From the IMG/VR virus record IMGVR_UViG_3300025466_000012, positions 32,001 through 96,000 of that record: 64,000 nucleotides of DNA. One strand, written 5' to 3'. This document shows, piece after piece, positions 3,175-51,220 of the stretch. Origin of the DNA: a virus. Made by a program: the position numbers and the translations under genes. Numbering within the stretch: position 1 is the first letter of the stretch; each line of letters opens with the position of its first letter. Below the pieces are notes generated by a model. The model had not been told where the DNA came from, made no database searches, and was given only the letters and a program-made list of their open reading frames with translations.

Positions 3175-3783
3175 ATGAAAAAATTCCACGATTATCTGGC
3201 CGAGTCCGAACGAACCTATAACTATCGAATCAAGATAGCCGGCGATGTACCAACCGGATTCGTCAAGGACCTGGGTGAAAAACTCAAGCAGTTCGACGTT
3301 GTAAAAATGTCAACAGCCAAGACCACACCAGTACAGGCACGCCTGAACGACTTTCCAGAAATTGAAAACGATCGAGTCACACACATGGATGTGGAGTTCC
3401 GGTATCCGGCTGTAGAGCCGCAGATCAAACAGATTGCGCAACTGTTGATGTTTGATCCCAACAGAATCAGAATGTTGACCACACCCTACGAGGACAGCAT
3501 GGATGAGGAAACTCGCAAGATCCAAGAGCAAAACCAGGATCTTCTCGCAGATACAGATTTTCCTGCACCCGACAAACAGCAAAAGGCCTTGTACAAAGAC
3601 TACAGTACCGAATACAACAATCATGCTGTGTTAAAAAATGCGTACAGAAGCGAATACACCGTGGCCGGTGGACCAACACCAGCCGCCAAGACAACCAATG
3701 ATCTGCCCATGGGCAACAAGAGTCCAATGACCACGATCAAGTTGCCACCAAAACCGCCCACCGGCAGTAAACCAAGAGGATAA
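3175..3783 (+). CDS. Putative capsid-internal protein with capsid-targeting-like N-terminus
   Basis: Starts MKKFHDYLAE; preceded by ATAAATA and AAGGA. Confidence 0.55.
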   Translation: MKKFHDYLAESERTYNYRIKIAGDVPTGFVKDLGEKLKQFDVVKMSTAKTTPVQARLNDFPEIENDRVTHMDVEFRYPAVEPQIKQIAQLLMFDPNRIRMLTTPYEDSMDEETRKIQEQNQDLLADTDFPAPDKQQKALYKDYSTEYNNHAVLKNAYRSEYTVAGGPTPAAKTTNDLPMGNKSPMTTIKLPPKPPTGSKPRG

Positions 3784-6838: not shown

Positions 6839-7216
6839 ATGCGAGCCCGCGAGTTTATAATCGAAGAAAAAGAAGGCAAGTTGAATCCTGATCATTCATC
6901 AGTGATGCCAACTGCACGCAGAATTCGTGATCGAGGCGGATATGATCGTACCAATCATATGAATCGCATGATGATGGCATTGGCCATGCACGACGGCAAA
7001 ACAAAAAATGCCATACCAAAAGAACAAATGGATCCCAACAGCTGGGTAGAAAAATATAACACAGCACATCCTTATACCAAAGAAGAAGACAACATGATAG
7101 TCGGCGCCATGAAAACGCTGGGTTCAGATCATCATCATGTGATATCAGACCATCGCAGTATTGAACCAACAGATGTACACAAAATCAGCCCAGTCAAAGG
7201 ATTTGGCGGTTATTGA
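6839..7216 (+). CDS. Hypothetical protein with capsid-targeting-like N-terminus
   Basis: Starts MRAREFIIEE. Confidence 0.55.
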   Translation: MRAREFIIEEKEGKLNPDHSSVMPTARRIRDRGGYDRTNHMNRMMMALAMHDGKTKNAIPKEQMDPNSWVEKYNTAHPYTKEEDNMIVGAMKTLGSDHHHVISDHRSIEPTDVHKISPVKGFGGY

Positions 7217-8020: not shown

Positions 8021-9580
8021 ATGGCCGACGAAGCCAATCTAGTCAAGGCGCCACATCGGCGCCAGACCTACACCGAAATCCAGCTGTCAGAATTTGTGGC
8101 CTGTATGGATCCAGTCACAGGTCCGCACTACTTCATGGATAATTTTTTCCATATCCAGCATCCAACCAAGGGCAAGATGCTGTATCGGGCGTTCGACTAT
8201 CAAAAACGCCTGATTGACACCTATCACAACTACAGATACAGCATCAGCATGATGCCTAGACAGACTGGTAAAAGTACCAGTGCTGCCGGTTATTTGCTAT
8301 GGATGGCCATGTTTCGCCCAGACAGCACCATCTTGATTGCTGCACACAAGTACACTGGTAGCCAAGAGATCATGCAGAGAATACGTTATGCCTATGAGCT
8401 GTGTCCGGATCATATCCGTGCCGGTGTGACCAGCTACAACAAGGGCAACCTGGACTTTGAAAACGGGTCAAGGATAGTATCGACCACTACAACAGAAAAT
8501 ACCGGTCGTGGTATGAGTATCACACTCCTGTACTGTGACGAGTTTGCATTCGTGCGTCCCACCATAGCACGCGAGTTCTGGACTTCGATCAGCCCTACCT
8601 TGGCCACTGGTGGTAAAGCCATCATTACCAGCACCCCCAACTCAGACGAAGATCAATTTGCCTTGATCTGGAAAGGAGCCAATCGATGTGAAGACAGCTA
8701 CGGCAATCCTACCGAGATCGGCATCAATGGATTTAGAGCTTATAGAAGCTACTGGAACGAACATCCAGATAGAGATGAACGTTGGGCCTCAGAACAGCGA
8801 GCCCAGCTGGGAGACGATCGTTTCCGGCGCGAAATGGGTTGCGAATTCTTGATCTACGAAGAGACCTTGATAGCACCAGCCAAACTGGTAGACATGACCG
8901 GAATTGATCCGGTCGCGACCATAGGACAAGTGCGATGGTATCAGACACCCAAACCGGGACGTATCTACACTGTGAGTCTGGATCCCAGTCTGGGCACCGG
9001 TGGCGACAATGCGGCCATACAGATATTTGAAGCCAATACCACCGAGCAGATAGGCGAGTGGAAACACAACCGGACAGCCATACCTGAACAGATACAACTG
9101 CTGGCATCGATCTGCGCCCATATCAACGAAACAGTAAAAAATCCTGAAAACATCTACTACAGCGTGGAAAACAACAGCATAGGTGAAGCAGCCTTGGTCA
9201 GCTTGCAACAGTACGGTGAAGAAAACATCAAGGGCTATTTTTTAAGCGAAAGCGGAGCTGCTGGCCGCACGTATAGAAAAGGGTTCAATACCACACACAA
9301 GAGCAAGATAGCTGCCTGCTCCAAACTCAAGACCTTGATCGAAACCGGCAAGATGAAGATACGCAGCAGGCCTTTGATCAGCGAACTCAAAACCTTTGTG
9401 GCAGCCAAGATGAGCTATGCGGCCAAAATTGGTGAAAGCGACGACTTGGTCATGGCCACCTTGCTGGCTGTACGAATGATGCAACAGCTACAAAACTATC
9501 ATCCTGAAATGGACCGTCAGTTGAGAGATTTCAGCGACAACCTGATTCCACCAATGCCATTTGTGGCCACATTACGATAA
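8021..9580 (+). CDS. terL: Terminase large subunit (T4 gp17-like)
   Basis: Walker A MPRQTGKST, Walker B LLYCDE, TSTPN coupling motif, nuclease motifs SLDPSLGTGGD and DDLVMA. Confidence 0.95.
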   Translation: MADEANLVKAPHRRQTYTEIQLSEFVACMDPVTGPHYFMDNFFHIQHPTKGKMLYRAFDYQKRLIDTYHNYRYSISMMPRQTGKSTSAAGYLLWMAMFRPDSTILIAAHKYTGSQEIMQRIRYAYELCPDHIRAGVTSYNKGNLDFENGSRIVSTTTTENTGRGMSITLLYCDEFAFVRPTIAREFWTSISPTLATGGKAIITSTPNSDEDQFALIWKGANRCEDSYGNPTEIGINGFRAYRSYWNEHPDRDERWASEQRAQLGDDRFRREMGCEFLIYEETLIAPAKLVDMTGIDPVATIGQVRWYQTPKPGRIYTVSLDPSLGTGGDNAAIQIFEANTTEQIGEWKHNRTAIPEQIQLLASICAHINETVKNPENIYYSVENNSIGEAALVSLQQYGEENIKGYFLSESGAAGRTYRKGFNTTHKSKIAACSKLKTLIETGKMKIRSRPLISELKTFVAAKMSYAAKIGESDDLVMATLLAVRMMQQLQNYHPEMDRQLRDFSDNLIPPMPFVATLR

Positions 9581-9590
9581 ATAATAAATC

Positions 9591-12557
9591 ATGGCAAAAG
9601 AAACTATTGGAAAAAAACTCTACGATTTGCTGGCCACCCGGGACTATGACAACTTCCAGGCCCTGGACAGCGCCACTGGCAAGGTACCCGTAGATCCCAA
9701 AACAGGTGCACAGAATGTGGGCGAAGCCAACATGTTTGTGTTTGACTGGAGCTCCAGTCGCGGCAAAAACTACGGTACTGCTGTGATCTTGTTGACCGAC
9801 GATCATGATCTTGAACTGTACTTTGGCGACAACCTAGGCAAGACCATGGAAGATCGCGAAGACAAAAACGAGTGGTTTGCATTCATGGAGCAGCTGAGAC
9901 ATTTTGCCACACGTACCAATTTCAACGGATTCAGACCGCTCAACATCAATCAACTGAGACACAGCCTGCAAGGGCAAGCTGCCATCCGGGAAGGACTTTT
10001 TGAAAGCTGGCAAGGTCGCAAGAACATGAGCTGGAACGGTGTGGCCACCGAAGCCAGACTCATGATACGTCACAAAAGAGACCTTGGACCCGACGAAGCC
10101 AGACACAGATATGTGGAGAGCCTGTTCATTGAAACAGCAGAAGGTGAACGTTACAAATTGCCATTTGTGAATCTAGGCGGTGGCAAGGCCATGCTGGAAC
10201 ATGTGCGCCAGGGTGGCAGACCCTACGATACAAGAGGTCAACACATAGCCAACATGATCCAAGAGATCAATATTTTGAGCAGATTTGAACGCAGCGTGGC
10301 CGGCGATGCCTTGATGGAAGGCGATACTGCGCAACTGGTGACCGAAGCTCACGGGTACAAACACAGTCTCAAAACCAATCTCAAACGTCTGGCTACCGGA
10401 CGCGGATACGCAGACTATTTTGAATCATGGAATCCGGCCAGCATCACTGAGCAAGATGTGGTAGTGGAAAGTCTCAAGCAACTGTTTGTAAAACAGACTC
10501 TGGACACCAGGATTGAACAAGCACTGCCGTTACTGGCAAAGATACAACAACAAGGACAAGCTATGAAAGAAGCCACGATATTTGAAGCCTGGGCCAACCG
10601 CCTGGTAGAAGGAACCTGGAGCCTGCCGGACACTCCAGAAAAACAGCAACAGCTGATAGATTTTATGAGCCAGGAACAACCGGTTGGTGCCGATGCTACA
10701 GATGCCACTGAGCAACTGTATGACATCCTGGGCGATGATCAGTTGTTTGATCGACTGAGTGAGTTGGCCGATCAGCACCCTGACAGCGATTGCCGCCAGT
10801 TGGTTCTGGACCGCATGCAGGAACTCAGCGATGATCCAGATGTGCGAGAGGCCTTGGAAAAACTCAATGTCAACACAGATGCTACCATGCACCCAGCGGC
10901 GGCTACTCCAGCCGATCTAGGCGGTGATAGCGATGGCGGCGACATCGATGAAAGCATGAGTGACCACCAGCATCATGTGTGGACTGTGCATTTTGCCGAC
11001 GGAACCCAGCGTCGTGTACCAGTAGGCAGCGATGAATTTGATTACGAAATCAAACGTATCCAGGATCATTTTGCCAAACAGGGACTTGAAGTGGTTGACG
11101 TGGACACAGATACTGCCATACACGGTGAACCACCCGCTGAACCAGAAGATTATGAAAAGACCGAAGGTGTCGCAGAAGGTCATGCAGACCAACAACGCAA
11201 AGTGTTTAAGAAGAATGGCAAGCCAGTAGGCGAAGTCGGTATTGACCGTGAATCGAGCCCAGGTGTTGGTCAGTATTACATGAAGCATTATGCTAGTGGT
11301 AAAGATTTGTCTGGGTATGATTCATACGAAGAAGCAGTAGCAGAACTAAAACATTGTCTAAAACAAGGTGTCGCAGAAGGTCATGCAGACCAACAACGCA
11401 AAGTGTTTAAGAAGAATGGCAAGCCAGTAGGCGAAGTCGGTATTGACCGTGAATCGAGCCCAGGTGTTGGTCAGTATTACATGAAGCATTATGCTAGTGG
11501 TAAAGATTTGTCTGGGTATGATTCATACGAAGAAGCAGTAGCAGAACTAAAACATTGTCTAAAACAAGGTGTGGCGGAAGGCTCAACTACACGAGGTGGG
11601 TTTGGTGGTTCAGCCAGTCAAGCACATCACGAAATTGAATGGCTTAAGAATAAGATTGAAACACTGAAACCGTTGTTGACCAAGAAACCCGGTGTTGCTC
11701 GTCAAATACGAGATTTGGAAAGACAGATCCGTGAGAGAGAACTGGCTATGGCATATCACGATCAAGGTGTGGCGGAAGATGCAATCCAATCTTTACGCAG
11801 AGCCGCTGGCTTGAATGAAAATGTGTTACGTGATAGCACCGGCAGCACACTGGATCATATTGCTGATAAATTCAAACGTGACATCCGAGATTTTGAAGCC
11901 ACAGGCAATCTCAGTGATGATTTGTTTGACGCACTATACGATTATTACCAAGATGACATGCCATACGGTGTACAAAAAGCTCGCTCGGGCGATCCGCACG
12001 ATTGGATCGCAGATCGAATCACTCAAGACTTAGGGTTACAACCAACCGATCTTGATCCGTTTGAAAAATTCAAATTGCGTAATAACGCAGCTCGTGACCA
12101 AGCAGGCATGCCACCCAATCCAGATTTCCAAGAAGAACGTGATCCACATTCGGTAGATGGCGGCATGGCCAATGCGTTGTTGGCTGACGATGCCGTCTGC
12201 AACATGAGCGATCATGGTCATCATTGCCCGGTACACGGAATTGAAGAATGTTGGGGTGCTGAATCCATGCCCGGTATGGAAGAAGGCGCAGTTGGAGCTG
12301 TAGCAGGTGCAGTACTAGCTCCTGAACTGGGACCACTGGCCAGCCGTGTTGGTAGCATGGCACAAGATGCCATGACCGATTCAGATGACGACCTTGACGA
12401 AGAAGGATTTGGTCTCAACCCAACTCCGGCAGCCATGGAAGAAGAACGCAGTCCGTTGGCTGGCATATATGGACATTCGGGCAAGATGAAGGAAGTGGGC
12501 CGTGACGTCGGCTTTTTGGACAGACTGAAAGAGCTGGCCGGCATGCGACAGGCATAA
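9591..12557 (+). CDS. Large modular putative capsid-internal polyprotein with a GVAE(G/D)-linked cassette array
   Basis: ATAAATA at 9577-9583; repeated hydrophobic-X-E sites; four GVAE linkers at 11166, 11367, 11568 and 11766. Confidence 0.65.
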   Translation: MAKETIGKKLYDLLATRDYDNFQALDSATGKVPVDPKTGAQNVGEANMFVFDWSSSRGKNYGTAVILLTDDHDLELYFGDNLGKTMEDREDKNEWFAFMEQLRHFATRTNFNGFRPLNINQLRHSLQGQAAIREGLFESWQGRKNMSWNGVATEARLMIRHKRDLGPDEARHRYVESLFIETAEGERYKLPFVNLGGGKAMLEHVRQGGRPYDTRGQHIANMIQEINILSRFERSVAGDALMEGDTAQLVTEAHGYKHSLKTNLKRLATGRGYADYFESWNPASITEQDVVVESLKQLFVKQTLDTRIEQALPLLAKIQQQGQAMKEATIFEAWANRLVEGTWSLPDTPEKQQQLIDFMSQEQPVGADATDATEQLYDILGDDQLFDRLSELADQHPDSDCRQLVLDRMQELSDDPDVREALEKLNVNTDATMHPAAATPADLGGDSDGGDIDESMSDHQHHVWTVHFADGTQRRVPVGSDEFDYEIKRIQDHFAKQGLEVVDVDTDTAIHGEPPAEPEDYEKTEGVAEGHADQQRKVFKKNGKPVGEVGIDRESSPGVGQYYMKHYASGKDLSGYDSYEEAVAELKHCLKQGVAEGHADQQRKVFKKNGKPVGEVGIDRESSPGVGQYYMKHYASGKDLSGYDSYEEAVAELKHCLKQGVAEGSTTRGGFGGSASQAHHEIEWLKNKIETLKPLLTKKPGVARQIRDLERQIRERELAMAYHDQGVAEDAIQSLRRAAGLNENVLRDSTGSTLDHIADKFKRDIRDFEATGNLSDDLFDALYDYYQDDMPYGVQKARSGDPHDWIADRITQDLGLQPTDLDPFEKFKLRNNAARDQAGMPPNPDFQEERDPHSVDGGMANALLADDAVCNMSDHGHHCPVHGIEECWGAESMPGMEEGAVGAVAGAVLAPELGPLASRVGSMAQDAMTDSDDDLDEEGFGLNPTPAAMEEERSPLAGIYGHSGKMKEVGRDVGFLDRLKELAGMRQA
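11164..11572 (+). repeat. Perfect in-frame tandem duplication, 2 x 201 bp (67 aa)
   Basis: 11164-11364 is identical to 11365-11565 by direct comparison; identity continues 7 nt into a third linker. Confidence 0.95.
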
Positions 12558-17880: not shown

Positions 17881-18081
17881 ATGGCTTATACTGTTTTTGC
17901 ACACGATACCAGTTTTGGTCCAAGAAAAGGCCTAGAAGGCCCGTTCCATTACCCCAATGGTCAGGTGTTGTATTATGACAACAAGGCCGGTGAATATTGG
18001 GATCCACGCACAGATTTCTATGTGGAACGCGATCGTGTTGCTGAATTACAACAGTCGATACTGGACAGAATCCGCGGTTGA
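17881..18081 (+). CDS. Small early hypothetical protein
   Basis: 66-aa ORF with AGGAG RBS, directly after an early promoter. Confidence 0.7.
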   Translation: MAYTVFAHDTSFGPRKGLEGPFHYPNGQVLYYDNKAGEYWDPRTDFYVERDRVAELQQSILDRIRG

Positions 18082-18106
18082 CCCAAAATGAGCCATTTGC
18101 TATAAT
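18078..18106 (+). promoter_or_regulatory. Sigma70-type early promoter (conserved cassette, copy 2)
   Basis: TTGACC, 17-nt spacer, TATAAT. Confidence 0.85.
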
Positions 18107-18139
18107 ATTAGTACAGTGACAAAACAAGGAGCGCAACAC

Positions 18140-48415: not shown

Positions 48416-49378
48416 TTGACTGTCACTTACCTGACTGCACTGCAACTGGATGCCGCAGCCGGTCTGTTGCAAAACACAGGCCTTGCAGCCAATGCGGCCC
48501 TGACCACGGCCATTGGCACCTACAACAGCACCGATCCAATCGGCAATCTGCTGAGTACCTTGGCCAATTCGACCTTGGCCAATCTTTCCAATGTGACCAT
48601 ACAAAGTCTCGAGAGCCTGGCCAGCAACACCTGTCCGGCCTTGGCTGACAGCTTGCCCACCGGCTACACCACTCTGACCGTGGATACCACCTTGTTTACT
48701 GGACTGCTGAGCAACACAGCTACATTGTACATGGGTCAAGGGGATCTTACCAAATTTGCACAGGCCCTGAGCCAGGCACAAAGCTATGTGGATCTGACTG
48801 CGATCTTTGTCAATTCGGCCATCAATAGCCAGACCTATCTGGGCAACACATTTACCAGCATGAACAATACCATCACGGGTGATATCACCACAGTGAACTT
48901 GGCCACTCAGGCTTTTGGTCAGGATCTGGCCAATCTGGGAGACTTGATTAACTTGAACGATCTGGGCAATTTTGGCAGTCCGCTGGGTCTGATACAACAG
49001 ATATACAGTGTGACTGGCGCCATACCCAGTGTCAGTATCATGTTTGTGGCAGTGGGTATACCAGTCAACGTGGTACTTGGTCTTGTTGACCCCACAATCA
49101 GTGTCACTGACAGCATACAACGCCTCATGTACACTGCCATGCAACAGATCACCGGCAACGACCTAGCACAGATACTGAGTGTGTTAAAAGTGACCACTTT
49201 GGGTATCACGACCATGGCTGATCTACTGAATCCGATCAAGTTGTTCCCCAACAGCTATGCCAGTCTCACTGTCCCGGCCAAGGGCCAGCCACGACCCATC
49301 TATGTCAACAGCACTGCCAGCGTGGATCGGGCCCTGATCAACGAATTGCCATCCTACATAATAAACAGCCTCGCATGA
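48416..49378 (+). CDS. Hypothetical virion protein
   Basis: Ala/Thr/Leu-rich; directly follows PAAR; TTG start. Confidence 0.55.
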   Translation: MTVTYLTALQLDAAAGLLQNTGLAANAALTTAIGTYNSTDPIGNLLSTLANSTLANLSNVTIQSLESLASNTCPALADSLPTGYTTLTVDTTLFTGLLSNTATLYMGQGDLTKFAQALSQAQSYVDLTAIFVNSAINSQTYLGNTFTSMNNTITGDITTVNLATQAFGQDLANLGDLINLNDLGNFGSPLGLIQQIYSVTGAIPSVSIMFVAVGIPVNVVLGLVDPTISVTDSIQRLMYTAMQQITGNDLAQILSVLKVTTLGITTMADLLNPIKLFPNSYASLTVPAKGQPRPIYVNSTASVDRALINELPSYIINSLA

Positions 49379-50325
49379 TACCCTACGATAGACTCAGCCA
49401 GATAGTACCAGCCGACCAGGCTCTGGCCTGCAAGGCCATCAGTGTGAGTCTGAACCAGATCGCCGGCATCACGACCATGACCTTGCCCAGCTTGGCCACT
49501 GTGGTCAGCGGCCAAGAGACCACTCGAGACTTGCCGTTAATTTCGGCCCTGACTGTGGCAGTACCGCCTGCGGTGGCCAATTATTTTACCAGCAACGTGG
49601 CTGTTGGAACAGGAACAGGAAACAGTATCGTGATCTGTGATGTTCTGGGCACCGCCAGCGGATTTGTCAGTGCCCCGGCTCTGGGCAATACCATATCTAG
49701 ATTCTCGACCATGGATCTTGCCAGTCTGACCACGATCTATTATACCATGGCGCAGGTGGCATCGGGCATTTGGACCACATTCGAACCGTTGAGTCCAACC
49801 GTCACGACCACCACTATCCCGGCAGGCTATCCGGCTGCCGGAACCTATGCCAGCCAAGACTTGGCCATACAGGCTCTGATACCCTTGGCCCAGGCCGAGA
49901 TTGCTGACCTGATCGTGCGATATCCCACGCAGACTTCGGCCATGAATACCGACTGGAACAACATGGCTACTCAGTTGACCTTGGAAAAACAGTTGCAGGC
50001 GCAAGCCGGACTGAATTTTGCCAATCTGGTGCCCAACAGTACCAGTTCCATGTACAGCTTTGTGTTCAACATGAACTCGTATGGAAATGATACACAGGTG
50101 GGTGGTCAAGCACAGCTGATCGAAGGTGTGGGCGATCTGACCACATTTACCGGTCAAGCCGTGATAGCTGCCATGCGAGAAGGTCGCAATCAGATTGGTT
50201 TGCAATCAGTGGGAATCACCACCAATGGTCCAATTCCGGCAGATCCAAATCCGCCTCCACTACAGGCCAATCTTATACCCAGCACCTACACAGCTCAACA
50301 AGCCGCAAATATAGTCGTTGTATAA
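49375..50325 (+). CDS. Hypothetical virion protein
   Basis: Composition similar to the upstream ORF; 4-nt overlap. Confidence 0.55.
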   Translation: MIPYDRLSQIVPADQALACKAISVSLNQIAGITTMTLPSLATVVSGQETTRDLPLISALTVAVPPAVANYFTSNVAVGTGTGNSIVICDVLGTASGFVSAPALGNTISRFSTMDLASLTTIYYTMAQVASGIWTTFEPLSPTVTTTTIPAGYPAAGTYASQDLAIQALIPLAQAEIADLIVRYPTQTSAMNTDWNNMATQLTLEKQLQAQAGLNFANLVPNSTSSMYSFVFNMNSYGNDTQVGGQAQLIEGVGDLTTFTGQAVIAAMREGRNQIGLQSVGITTNGPIPADPNPPPLQANLIPSTYTAQQAANIVVV

Positions 50326-50367
50326 AAACAACACTTTTCAAGCCCTGTTCGACGGGGTCAATTTTGG

Positions 50368-50396
50368 TTGACCAAAAACGCCCGTTCGGTTATAAT
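50368..50396 (+). promoter_or_regulatory. Sigma70-type early promoter (conserved cassette, copy 3)
   Basis: TTGACC, 17-nt spacer, TATAAT, then AGTAGTATAGT. Confidence 0.9.
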
Positions 50397-50425
50397 AGTA
50401 GTATAGTAAACGAACGGAGTCAAAC

Positions 50426-50647
50426 ATGGACCAAATGACTAAACAAATTGAAGGTTGGGGCGAAGTGGGTATAGACTCAGAAGCCAGCCCAGGCAATGGT
50501 CGATACTATGTCAAGTGCTATGTCAACGGCCACGACACAGTGGGATTTGACACTGAAGAGGAAGCTCTACTAGAGTTAGAGTTTATAATTCAAGGCCTTA
50601 AAGCATACTCCGATCCGGGCAGGCATACCCAATTACGTTTTGGTTGA
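50426..50647 (+). CDS. Small early protein homologous to the duplicated cassette in the 9591 polyprotein
   Basis: 24 of 40 residues identical, without gaps, starting at GEVGID. Confidence 0.75.
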   Translation: MDQMTKQIEGWGEVGIDSEASPGNGRYYVKCYVNGHDTVGFDTEEEALLELEFIIQGLKAYSDPGRHTQLRFG

Positions 50648-50672
50648 CCAAAAATGCCATTTCGGTTATAAT
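50644..50672 (+). promoter_or_regulatory. Sigma70-type early promoter (conserved cassette, copy 4)
   Basis: TTGACC, 17-nt spacer, TATAAT, then AGTAGTATAGT. Confidence 0.9.
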
Positions 50673-50703
50673 AGTAGTATAGTTAAATTTTTAAGGAGCC
50701 CAA

Positions 50704-50925
50704 ATGTTTAATGCAAAACAAACCCAATTGATGAATACCTTGGGTATTGTAAGCGACGCAGATCGCGAGCGCATGTACGAAAATTACTGCGAAATCAAGT
50801 TCGAATTACAGGCCAACGGTATGAGATCATACAGTTCTTTCACCAGTTTCCTTGAGAAAAAAGTGCAATTTGCCCTGATGCGTGCCCGTGAAAATGCCGA
50901 TAAAACCCTGGCACAGCTGGCCTAA
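50704..50925 (+). CDS. Small early hypothetical protein
   Basis: AAGGAG RBS; has its own promoter. Confidence 0.7.
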   Translation: MFNAKQTQLMNTLGIVSDADRERMYENYCEIKFELQANGMRSYSSFTSFLEKKVQFALMRARENADKTLAQLA

Positions 50926-50931
50926 AAACGG

Positions 50932-50960
50932 TTGACCCAAAATGACCCGTTTGTTATAAT
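50932..50960 (+). promoter_or_regulatory. Sigma70-type early promoter (conserved cassette, copy 5)
   Basis: TTGACC, 17-nt spacer, TATAAT, then AGTAGTATAGT. Confidence 0.9.
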
Positions 50961-50989
50961 AGTAGTATAGTCGATAACAAGGAGCTGAA

Positions 50990-51220
50990 ATGACAACAGT
51001 ACAATACAAAGTGGGCGATGATGTTAGCCACGGTATCGGTGGCGATCGCTATTACGATGGTAAAATTACTCGTATGACCAAGCGATTTATTTTCACCGAT
51101 TCCGGTCGTCGATACACTCGCAAAGAGGACAAAAATGGTCGTGTTTATTACACGCAGACCGGTTGCAAGTACTGTTATTTGATTCCGGGCAAACACGACT
51201 ACATGGACCCACATTTCTAA
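50990..51220 (+). CDS. Small early hypothetical protein
   Basis: AAGGAG RBS; has its own promoter. Confidence 0.7.
   Translation: MTTVQYKVGDDVSHGIGGDRYYDGKITRMTKRFIFTDSGRRYTRKEDKNGRVYYTQTGCKYCYLIPGKHDYMDPHF

What the first reader, a model, noticed from the sequence alone, without database searches (positions are those of the whole stretch)
50426..50647. Free-standing early gene is a homolog of the duplicated polyprotein cassette
Seen: GEVGIDSEASPGNGRYYVKCYVNGHDTVGFDTEEEALLEL (50426 ORF) aligns without gaps to GEVGIDRESSPGVGQYYMKHYASGKDLSGYDSYEEAVAEL (11164-11565 repeat), 24 of 40 identical, with visible DNA similarity. The free copy has its own sigma70 early promoter cassette. Inference: the same small domain is both made early and pre-packaged in the virion. 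This suggests a host-takeover or anti-defence effector moving between an early-gene pool and the polyprotein array.
Basis: partly seen in the sequence, partly recalled or inferred. Interest (0 to 1): 0.8.

Follow-up and report, generated by a model that had tools for sequence, protein, structure and literature searches.

The report
Early free copy of capsid-cargo module
A 73-residue phage gene behind a strong host-type promoter is a genuine, anciently diverged relative of a small module repeated inside a virion protein; the family is undescribed, widespread in uncultivated giant phages and normally single-copy, but its function is unknown.

Summary
ORF 50426-50647 matches both tandem cassettes of the 988-aa protein after the large terminase (24/45 identical, E 4e-14). 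It follows a repeated TTGACC-17-TATAAT cassette.

The window is part of a 200-kb fragment of an uncultivated giant phage. The shared unit is a ~57-residue, four-strand-plus-helix domain with no Pfam, PHROG, solved-structure or cultured-phage match. It occurs in 300 protein clusters.

About a tenth are free-standing small genes forming one clade. The rest sit inside multi-module proteins bounded by ..VAE|GHADQQ.. and ..KQGVAE|. Many of these start with a leader like the T4 capsid-targeting sequence. Related phages encode the T4-type prohead protease.

The two copies here are old paralogs (synonymous sites saturated), not a local duplication. All 49 other viral records checked hold exactly one copy, free or embedded. 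This phage has both.

Both forms are mobile: the free gene moves with its promoter cassette, and the embedded one moves as a block between different carrier genes.

Best reading: a function needed at the onset of infection, delivered by injection or by immediate-early expression, as with T4 Alt versus ModA/ModB. Packaging, cleavage, timing and target are all inferred. The scan had already noted the GVAE array on this genome.

The parts
50342..50358 (+). Terminator-like hairpin after the preceding 316-aa ORF; the stem-loop half of a composite terminator/promoter cassette
   Evidence: 7-pair stem, 4 GC pairs, T-rich tail; sequence
50368..50407 (+). Promoter cassette: TTGACC (-35), 17-nt spacer, TATAAT (-10), then the conserved extension AGTAGTATAGT
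   Evidence: 11/12 to consensus; the same extended motif occurs about 10 times in the genome, all on the + strand, each in front of an ORF with a Shine-Dalgarno site
50416..50419 (+). Shine-Dalgarno GGAG, 6 nt before the ATG
   Evidence: Sequence; conserved in L006 and L091
50426..50647 (+). Free-standing 73-aa gene of the domain family. The stop TGA lies inside the -35 hexamer of the next promoter
   Evidence: 7 close homologs of 73-84 aa; AlphaFold2 pLDDT 80.7, strands at 3-8, 12-16, 27-31 and 37-41, helix 44-62
50459..50593 (+). Conserved core of the domain (G12-Q56): GEVGID.E.SPG.G.YY.K.Y...D..G.D..EEA..EL
   Evidence: Invariant columns in alignments A1 and A2; pN 0.31 against pS 0.84 versus the embedded copy
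50644..50683 (+). Second promoter cassette, driving the next 73-aa ORF (50704-50925)
50932..50971 (+). Third promoter cassette, driving the 76-aa ORF 50990-51220 (phrog_9742, unknown function)
50391..50687 (+). Mobile unit: -10 region, gene and next promoter. It is 93% identical to a copy in another phage whose core genes are only 65-68% identical, and it sits elsewhere in that genome
   Evidence: L006 5016-5312. Flanks in L006 correspond to window 18.1-22 kb, joined at the promoter motif of window 18076-18132
8021..9580 (+). Large terminase subunit, immediately upstream of the carrier gene
   Evidence: Terminase_6N/6C; phrog_36964 at 3e-111
9591..12557 (+). 988-aa carrier. The N-terminal domain (about aa 30-350) is shared with virion structural proteins. 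The C-terminal half is an array of small modules that recur in other carriers
   Evidence: phrog_13484 virion structural protein, 8e-9; PA5oct gp278, CBB gp276; same TerL-carrier-SSB-RecA order
11166..11366 (+). Embedded cassette, copy 1 (67 aa, GVAE|GHADQQRK...KHCLKQ)
11367..11567 (+). Embedded cassette, copy 2, identical to copy 1 at 201/201 nt. It is absent from the 921-aa allele of sister strains
   Evidence: 988 minus one unit equals P0048 with 0 other differences
11166..11177 (+). GVAE linker 1 (putative prohead-protease site V-A-E|G)
   Evidence: motif class in PMC9026906
11367..11378 (+). GVAE linker 2
11568..11579 (+). GVAE linker 3
11766..11777 (+). GVAE linker 4; the right end of the block shared at 96-99% DNA identity with a different carrier gene in another phage

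Best explanation
ORF 50426-50647 is a real gene. It is the stand-alone form of an undescribed, strongly conserved ~57-residue domain (four beta-strands and one helix).

In this clade of uncultivated giant T4-like phages the domain is normally present once per genome, in one of two forms.
(a) A small free gene, often directly behind a strong host-sigma70-type promoter, so it would be made immediately after infection.
(b) A cassette inside multi-module head-associated proteins. There it is bounded by V-A-E linkers and often preceded by a leader like the T4 capsid-targeting sequence. A T4 gp21-type prohead protease would probably cut it free inside the capsid, and it would be ejected with the DNA.

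Both routes put the same small protein into the cell at the very start of infection. The closest precedent is T4 Alt (injected) against ModA/ModB (early genes).

This phage has both forms because it holds the embedded copy in its terminase-adjacent virion protein, recently duplicated in tandem. It also carries a free copy on a mobile promoter cassette that has been exchanged with another phage.

The most likely activity is a small binding or inhibitor protein acting on a host factor, for take-over or counter-defence. The target is unknown.

Shown: homology, selection, promoter motif, the two contexts, one copy per record, and mobility of both forms. Inferred: packaging, cleavage, early timing and activity.
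For: Homology and selection:
- E 4e-14 between the free gene and each cassette.
- pN 0.31 against pS 0.84 between the window's two forms. Across 741 pairs the median pN is 0.25 and the median pS 0.73.

Breadth:
- 300 clusters at 50% identity; 256 at E<1e-10; host proteins of 56-1991 aa.
- 130-178 confirmed stretches in IMG/VR.
- Among the best 80 loci of the first scan, 57 lie in short ORFs and 23 in long ones.

Boundaries and leaders:
- The commonest flanks are EGHADQQRK upstream (95 copies) and QGVAE downstream.
- 86 of 202 carriers start with MK..EF.TE-type leaders, for example MKANEFIAEA.
- For comparison, the T4 capsid-targeting sequence is MKTYQEFIAE (PMC8442874) and gp21 cuts after L/I-X-E (PMC9026906).

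Protease and head context:
- Peptidase_S77 scores above the Pfam cut-off in 5 of 5 long related records.
- In one of them the carrier lies 2.6 kb after the portal, protease and major head protein genes.
- The carrier's N-terminal domain is homologous to PA5oct gp278 (marked ESI-MS/MS in the record) and CBB gp276 (annotated virion structural protein), in the same gene order.

Promoter:
-. Relatives of the free gene also have their own TTGAC..TATAAT promoters.
- T4 early promoters are excellent host-polymerase sites (PMC2988021).

Copy number: all 49 other viral records hold exactly one copy, including one 97%-complete 338-kb record with only the free form.

Mobility:
- The free cassette is 93% identical between phages whose core genes are 65-68% identical.
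- The embedded cassette plus the next module is 96-99% identical inside a different 1487-aa leader-bearing polyprotein, in a phage otherwise 65-72% identical.

Precedent: Alt is injected, whereas ModA and ModB are early products (PMC2988021).
Against: - No direct evidence exists that the 988-aa protein is in the virion, is cleaved at VAE, or that its fragments are ejected.
- The 988-aa protein itself has no CTS-like leader (it starts MAKETIGKK).
- V at P3 is similar to, but not the same as, the L/I of the T4 motif.
- No prohead protease was found in the window's own record, which is only 58% complete.
- Transcription could not be tested.
- The fold has no informative relative: best Z 5.9, which is background level.
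- Most of the 49 comparison records are fragments, so 'one copy per genome' rests mainly on the 8 records of 39-97% completeness.
- If one copy suffices, it is unclear why this phage keeps three.
Confidence: 0.5

Rival explanations
1. The module is a capsid-interior housekeeping part, not an effector. It would anchor or organise cargo, scaffold or DNA inside the head. It recurs in so many carriers because every cargo protein set needs one such handle. The free copy would serve the same assembly role in trans.
For: - Nearly always one copy per carrier (120 of 128) and one per record.
- It is the most conserved part of the carriers, more conserved at the DNA level than the terminase (75-79% against 66-69%). 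That fits an interaction with a conserved phage partner.
- Carriers lie in or near head-gene clusters.
Against: - Free copies sit behind host-type consensus promoters among small genes of unknown function, not in late head operons.
- Many phages, including a 97%-complete one, have only the free form and no embedded copy, although they encode the same protease.
- An anchor for cargo would be expected in every cargo protein of a genome, not once per genome.
Confidence: 0.2
2. The free early protein works against the packaged module rather than with it. As a look-alike it could compete with or cap the injected module of a second infecting phage, giving superinfection exclusion. Alternatively it could neutralise the phage's own injected copy once that copy's job is done.
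For: - This genome, unusually, keeps both forms.
- The two forms belong to different, long-separated subfamilies.
- The free form was gained or exchanged horizontally on a promoter cassette.
Against: Most phages with the free form have no embedded copy to antagonise. The conserved core residues are the same in both forms, which suggests the same activity. No direct evidence exists.
Confidence: 0.1
3. The cassette is a selfish in-frame mobile element that spreads through GVAE-coding linker repeats without benefit to the phage. On this view the free gene is a domesticated or decaying offshoot.
For: - Exact 201-nt tandem duplication that is polymorphic between strains.
- A block at 96-99% identity in unrelated carrier genes, with its right edge exactly at a GVAE linker.
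- Conserved about 15-nt linker DNA.
Against: - Strong purifying selection on the protein, with saturated synonymous sites.
- One copy per record rather than proliferation.
- A stable free-standing clade with its own ribosome-binding site and promoter.
- A confidently predicted compact fold.
Confidence: 0.1
4. The match is chance or the 73-aa ORF is not a gene.
For: None beyond its small size and the lack of any database family.
Against: - E 4e-14.
- Homologs of the same length in many samples; the exact protein occurs on 31 contigs.
- Shine-Dalgarno site and promoter present.
- pN well below pS.
- Fold predicted with pLDDT 80.7.
Confidence: 0.01

Closest known systems
T4 internal proteins IPI/IPII/IPIII with their capsid-targeting sequence, processed by prohead protease gp21
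   Same: Carriers of the embedded module often begin with a roughly 10-residue leader very like MKTYQEFIAE (PMC8442874). Module boundaries end in hydrophobic-X-Glu (PMC9026906). Related phages encode a Peptidase_S77 protease. The T4 cargo set is likewise diverse and poorly conserved, apart from the targeting signal (PMC3012670).
   Different: Here many small modules (30-80 aa) are strung in one polypeptide with repeated GVAE linkers, instead of one protein per leader. The linker has V rather than L/I at P3. The window's own carrier has no such leader; it is fused to a conserved virion-protein domain instead. There is no sequence or fold similarity to IPI*.
T4 Alt (injected head protein) versus ModA and ModB (early gene products), three homologous ADP-ribosyltransferases
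   Same: One protein family is deployed both pre-packaged in the head and from early genes, so it acts before and just after phage gene expression starts (PMC2988021).
   Different: The domain here is tiny, has no catalytic signature and is unrelated to ADP-ribosyltransferases. In most genomes only one of the two routes is used, whereas T4 keeps all three.
Polyvalent proteins of phages and conjugative elements (Iyer et al. 2017, PMC5512222)
   Same: These are multi-domain proteins combining unrelated modules with virion structural domains, predicted to be injected with the DNA and processed by a protease. ParB_N, a typical polyvalent-protein domain, is a partner of the module in some carriers.
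   Different: Modules here are mostly very small and non-enzymatic. Processing is predicted to be done by the prohead protease at GVAE, not by a built-in zincin peptidase. I did not check whether this domain is among that paper's 131 listed domains.
PeSL cassettes (promoter-early stem-loops) of T4-like phages (PMC2839356, PMC4122927)
   Same: A terminator-like hairpin plus a conserved early promoter flanks small variable ORFs. The free gene has been swapped between phages, with break-points at the promoter motifs.
   Different: The motif sequence is specific to this phage group. Here the spacer between -35 and -10 itself carries an inverted repeat. Recombination was inferred from one comparison only.

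Membership tests
T4-type capsid-targeted internal protein (CTS cargo) | N-terminal leader of about 10 residues resembling MKTYQEFIAE and ending in a protease site | tested here: not met
   The window's 988-aa carrier starts MAKETIGKKLYDLL. However, 86 of 202 other carriers of the module do have such a leader, and other ORFs of this genome do too, for example window 6839 MRAREFIIEE.
T4-type capsid-targeted internal protein (CTS cargo) | Cleavage C-terminal to Glu in an L/I-X-E motif by the prohead protease | tested here: inconclusive
   Four G-V-A-E sites bound the modules, and the same boundary is seen in most embedded copies. V replaces L/I at P3. Cleavage itself cannot be observed with these tools.
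T4-type capsid-targeted internal protein (CTS cargo) | gp21-type prohead protease (Peptidase_S77) encoded by the phage | tested here: inconclusive
   Not found in the window's own record, which is 58% complete. Found above the Pfam cut-off in 5 of 5 long related records that carry the domain.
T4-type capsid-targeted internal protein (CTS cargo) | Physical presence in the mature head and ejection into the cell | not testable with these tools
   Only indirect evidence: the N-terminal domain is homologous to PA5oct gp278 (ESI-MS/MS note in the record) and CBB gp276 (virion structural protein).
Polyvalent proteins (PMC5512222) | Two to 15 unrelated domains in one polypeptide, combined with virion structural domains | tested here: met
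   The 988-aa protein has a conserved virion domain plus at least five small modules, each found in other carriers. Other carriers add DUF6321, ParB_N and ProQ_C-like modules.
Polyvalent proteins (PMC5512222) | Domains with disparate biochemical (often enzymatic) activities | tested here: inconclusive
   No enzymatic domain is detected in the window's carrier. ParB_N occurs in one other carrier.
PeSL mobile promoter cassette | Composite terminator-like stem-loop plus conserved early promoter, repeated in the genome in front of small variable ORFs | tested here: met
   Hairpin at 50342-50358 and promoter at 50368-50396. About 10 copies of the extended motif, all on the + strand.
PeSL mobile promoter cassette | Break-points of gene swaps between related phages fall at the cassettes | tested here: met
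   The L006 copy is 93% identical over window 50391-50687 only, and is joined to the homolog of window 18076-18132, another copy of the promoter motif. This is one comparison.
Early gene (host RNA polymerase, sigma70-type promoter) | Transcript present in the first minutes of infection | not testable with these tools
   Only the promoter sequence is available.
Known small-protein folds (HicB N-terminal, DUF1508/YegP, anti-CRISPR proteins, AP2) | Structural match clearly above background | tested here: inconclusive
   Foldseek against the PDB found nothing at E<=0.001. VIA-align's best was Z 5.9, with anti-CRISPR chains at Z 4.8-5.0, all within background. BFVD and the ESM Atlas returned only the family itself plus weak HicB/DUF1508-like rows.
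Any curated protein family (Pfam, PHROGs) | Profile match | tested here: not met
   No family for the 73-aa protein, and none covering the cassette, at E<=0.01.

The most novel reading that the evidence does not exclude
A previously undescribed ~57-residue domain is the one near-universal, single-copy 'first-minute' factor of a large clade of uncultivated giant T4-like phages. Each phage delivers it either by injection, after it is cut out of neuropeptide-precursor-like capsid polyproteins at GVAE sites, or by immediate-early expression from a mobile promoter cassette. Lineages switch route only rarely. The domain hits a conserved host target, in defence or transcription, that no known phage protein family addresses.
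Probability: 0.25. Interest if true: 0.75.

Novelty: new variant of a known kind. Interest (0 to 1): 0.5.

Why it matters
If the reading holds, these phages show one small protein delivered by two interchangeable routes, pre-packaged or made at once. It is kept at one copy per genome and is more conserved at the DNA level than the terminase. That marks it as a prime candidate for a key early host-directed factor in a group of giant phages known only from metagenomes.

It also gives a clean handle on the GVAE-linked cargo polyproteins. The free form is a natural, ready-made construct of one released module. It can be expressed, crystallised and used for pull-downs without guessing cleavage sites.

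The general principles are already known from T4: capsid-targeting leader, Glu-specific prohead protease, Alt versus ModA/ModB, and promoter-cassette shuffling. The advance would therefore be a new family and a new arrangement, not a new principle.

Tried and rejected
- Near-identical and protein-level searches of 50,697 cultured-phage records with the free gene, the cassette and the surrounding DNA found nothing. The only exception was the distant N-terminal virion domain of the carrier.
- Pfam and PHROGs gave no family for the domain.
- Sequence search of PDB chains found nothing significant: best E 0.041 for a phage cell wall hydrolase and E 1 for AcrIIA15.
- The feature search of the ESM Atlas scored below 0.9 and was uninformative.
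- Fold searches in four libraries gave no match above background.
- Complex prediction of the free domain with the cassette returned 'no answer' (score 0.01, controls not run). This counts neither for nor against binding.
- Peptidase_S77 was not found in the window's own incomplete record.
- Literature searches for GVAEG and DUF6321 found nothing relevant.
- Recent intragenomic copying between the two forms is rejected: third codon positions are only 40% identical.
- Frequent exchange between the free and embedded pools is rejected: 4 changes on the tree.

Full report
WHAT IS THERE

The window is bases 32001-96000 of a 199.7-kb IMG/VR viral contig, estimated 58% complete. This implies a giant phage of roughly 340 kb.

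Gene content and order are T4-like in the wide sense. Tail tube and head-closure genes come first. They are followed by the large terminase (8021-9580), a 988-aa ORF (9591-12557), a gp32-like single-strand-binding protein and a RecA/UvsX-like protein. The same terminase / virion protein / SSB / recombinase order occurs in Pseudomonas phage PA5oct and in Rak2-like phages such as Pectobacterium phage CBB. There the protein after the terminase is annotated as a virion structural protein, and the PA5oct record marks it ESI-MS/MS. Residues about 110-325 of the 988-aa ORF are homologous to those proteins: 27-31% identity, E down to 9e-14, and phrog_13484 at 8e-9.

THE OBSERVATION

ORF 50426-50647 (73 aa, GGAG six bases before the ATG) aligns without gaps to residues 547-591 and 614-658 of the 988-aa protein. 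Identity is 24/45, with 34/45 positives, at E 4e-14.

The repeat is a 201-nt unit present 2.1 times, and the two full units are identical at every base.

At the DNA level the free and embedded copies share 58% identity and only 40% at third codon positions. The Nei-Gojobori proportions are pS 0.84 and pN 0.31. They are therefore old paralogs kept similar by selection on the protein, not a recent copy.

The promoter claim is correct as a sequence statement. TTGACC-17-TATAAT lies at 50368-50396, preceded by a terminator-like hairpin at 50342-50358. The same 40-nt motif stands in front of the next two small ORFs and about ten times in the record, always on the + strand. The stop codon of the 73-aa ORF lies inside the -35 hexamer of the next cassette.

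THE FAMILY

A word-indexed search of 5.8 billion proteins found only seven close free-standing relatives. Searching longer proteins with a small alignment returned at least 373 hits. An exhaustive profile search of 1.84 billion cluster representatives found 300 clusters, 256 of them at E<1e-10, in proteins of 56 to 1991 residues. No cultured phage among 50,697 records has the domain, and neither Pfam nor PHROGs covers it.

Of 251 domain copies, 25 are in small stand-alone proteins of the type MD..K.I.G.GEVGID... The other 226 are embedded.

Embedded copies have remarkably constant edges. The commonest upstream context is ..(V)AE-GHADQQRK and the commonest downstream context is ..KHC(L/M)KQGVAE. 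Their host proteins are strings of small modules separated by GVAE-like linkers, up to eight per protein. Partner modules include DUF6321, ParB_N and a ProQ C-terminal-like domain.

Of 202 carriers that start with Met, 86 begin with a leader such as MKASEFTTEA, MKANEFIAEA or MKTLRDYINLIES. The T4 capsid-targeting sequence is MKTYQEFIAE (PMC8442874), and T4 gp21 cuts after L/I-X-E (PMC9026906).

All five long related records tested encode a Peptidase_S77 (gp21-type) protease above the Pfam cut-off. In one of them the carrier lies 2.6 kb downstream of the portal, protease and major head protein genes, next to another ORF that starts MKINQIVNEE. The window's own record shows no such protease, but 42% of that genome is missing.

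TWO POOLS, RARELY EXCHANGED

On a tree of the 251 domain copies, 20 of the 25 free copies form one clade (support 95). Only four changes between 'free' and 'embedded' are needed, against a mean of 24 (minimum 21) for shuffled labels. Some of the remaining singletons are probably fragments or leader-plus-module proteins. The free form is thus essentially one old lineage.

Each pool is mobile in its own way.

The free gene, with the -10 region before it and the promoter after it (window 50391-50687), is 93% identical to a copy in another phage (L006). That phage's core genes are only 65-68% identical. There the gene sits next to the homolog of window 18.1-22 kb, joined at another copy of the promoter motif. 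In a third relative it follows ClpP, Cpn10 and DnaJ genes. This is the behaviour described for PeSL cassettes of T4-like phages (PMC2839356, PMC4122927).

The embedded cassette is the only part of the carrier gene with detectable DNA similarity across phages, at 75-79% compared with 66-69% for the terminase. In one related phage (G049) the cassette plus the following module is 96-99% identical to window 11124-11778. That phage is syntenic to another part of this genome at 65-72% identity. There the block lies inside a different protein, a 1487-aa polyprotein with an MNLFD leader. The right break-point is exactly at a GVAE linker.

The tandem duplication in the window is a strain polymorphism. 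The cluster representative from sister strains is 921 aa, which equals the 988-aa protein minus one 67-residue unit with no other difference.

ONE COPY PER GENOME

I searched 49 other IMG/VR records that carry the domain, 28 through a free copy and 21 through an embedded copy. Every one has exactly one match.

Most are fragments. Eight are 39-97% complete, however, including a 338-kb, 97%-complete record with only the free form. If a second copy were usual it would have been seen. The window's phage and its strain-level relatives are the exception. The exact free protein and the carrier's 921-aa allele are both recorded on contigs whose longest is 283,753 bases, which may be the same contig.

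STRUCTURE AND FUNCTION

AlphaFold2 with a 33-sequence alignment gives a compact model: mean pLDDT 80.7, four strands (3-8, 12-16, 27-31, 37-41) and a helix (44-62). The last 10 residues, which overlap the next promoter, are disordered.

No library gave a match above background. Foldseek against the PDB found none at E<=0.001. The best VIA-align hit was Z 5.9 (MmoD), with two anti-CRISPR chains at Z 4.8-5.0. BFVD and the ESM Atlas returned the family itself plus weak HicB- and DUF1508-like rows. By my count from the sequence, the free protein is acidic (13 Asp/Glu against 6 Lys/Arg). This argues against plain DNA binding.

A complex prediction of the free domain with the cassette gave no verdict.

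READING

The evidence best fits a small protein needed at the onset of infection that a phage can supply in either of two ways. It can be packaged in the head as part of a protease-processed cargo polyprotein, or it can be made at once from a host-type promoter. T4 gives the precedent: Alt is injected with the DNA, while its homologs ModA and ModB are early products (PMC2988021). T4 internal proteins are a diverse set of anti-restriction factors sharing only the targeting leader (PMC3012670).

I put about 0.5 on this overall model and less on the specific 'inhibitor of a host factor' activity.

The rivals are:
- an intra-capsid organising role (0.2);
- an antagonist or exclusion role for the free copy (0.1);
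- a selfish in-frame element (0.1);
- chance (0.01).

What remains inferred is packaging, cleavage at VAE, early timing and any activity.

VERDICT

The homology, the two contexts and the promoter are real, and the two-route idea has a good precedent. Exchange between the pools is rare, however, co-occurrence is exceptional, and the function is untested.

The domain family is new to the databases, but the kind of system is known, so I rate it a new variant of a known kind with interest 0.5. Earlier first-stage notes of this scan had already flagged the GVAE array and the leader-bearing ORFs on this same genome. I used them as leads and checked them here.

Noticed in passing
window 50368-50396, 50644-50672, 50932-50960, 18070-18117; genome-wide list: The 17-nt spacer between the -35 and -10 boxes of the repeated promoter carries an inverted repeat. 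It is perfect in two copies outside the window (CCGAAAT-GAC-ATTTCGG) and imperfect in the window copies. It could be an operator for a phage or host regulator, or a recombination hot-spot.
   Followed up: no
window 11166-11567: The exact 201-nt tandem duplication is polymorphic. Sister strains encode a 921-aa protein that equals the 988-aa one minus one unit, with no other change. The junction carries the left-type linker sequence, which fits unequal exchange between the GVAE-coding repeats.
   Followed up: yes
window 11124-11778 versus L093 2959-3412 (G049, IMG/VR contig of 31,296 bases): A two-module block (the cassette plus the GSTTRGG...ERQIRERE module) is 96-99% identical at the DNA level inside a different, 1487-aa polyprotein with an MNLFD leader. 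That phage is otherwise only 65-72% identical. The polyprotein sits where this genome has a 707-aa MNLFD protein (genome 179932-182055).
   Followed up: partly
window 9591-12557, aa 370-455 versus 776-858; aa 446-517; aa 660-741; aa 741-817: The C-terminal half of the 988-aa protein is a mosaic. It has an internal diverged repeat and at least three further small modules, each found in other, otherwise unrelated carrier proteins.
   Followed up: partly
L093 (carrier residues about 990-1015) and protein P0011 residues 408-427: Some carriers hold, directly after a GVAE linker, a twin-arginine-signal-like stretch (..DRRGFLKGLGAAAVAG..; Pfam TAT_signal E 0.002, below the cut-off). If the linker is cut, the released fragment would start near a Tat export signal. 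This hints at an injected protein that the host then exports to the periplasm.
   Followed up: no
window 3175-3783 and 6839-7216: Two ORFs just upstream of the terminase begin with leaders like the T4 capsid-targeting sequence (MKKFHDYLAES.., MRAREFIIEE..). They may be further capsid cargo of this phage. Neither has a PHROG family.
   Followed up: partly
window 50645-50647: The stop codon of the free gene lies inside the -35 hexamer (TTGACC) of the next promoter. The last roughly 10 residues are predicted to be disordered, yet ..TQLRFG is conserved in close relatives, perhaps because the DNA is constrained as a promoter.
   Followed up: no
window 48416-50325: Two overlapping-stop ORFs of 320 and 316 aa directly upstream of the free gene are rich in Thr, Ser, Ala and Val. 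They have no Pfam or PHROG match and may be structural (fibre-like) proteins. If so, the free gene sits at a late/early boundary.
   Followed up: no
L177 10878-11525 (G005): Next to an embedded-form carrier, a 215-aa ORF with a CTS-like start (MKINQIVNEE) weakly matches the T7 gp0.7-type protein kinase / host-transcription inhibitor family (phrog_15752, E 1.6e-8). It is a possible packaged kinase.
   Followed up: no
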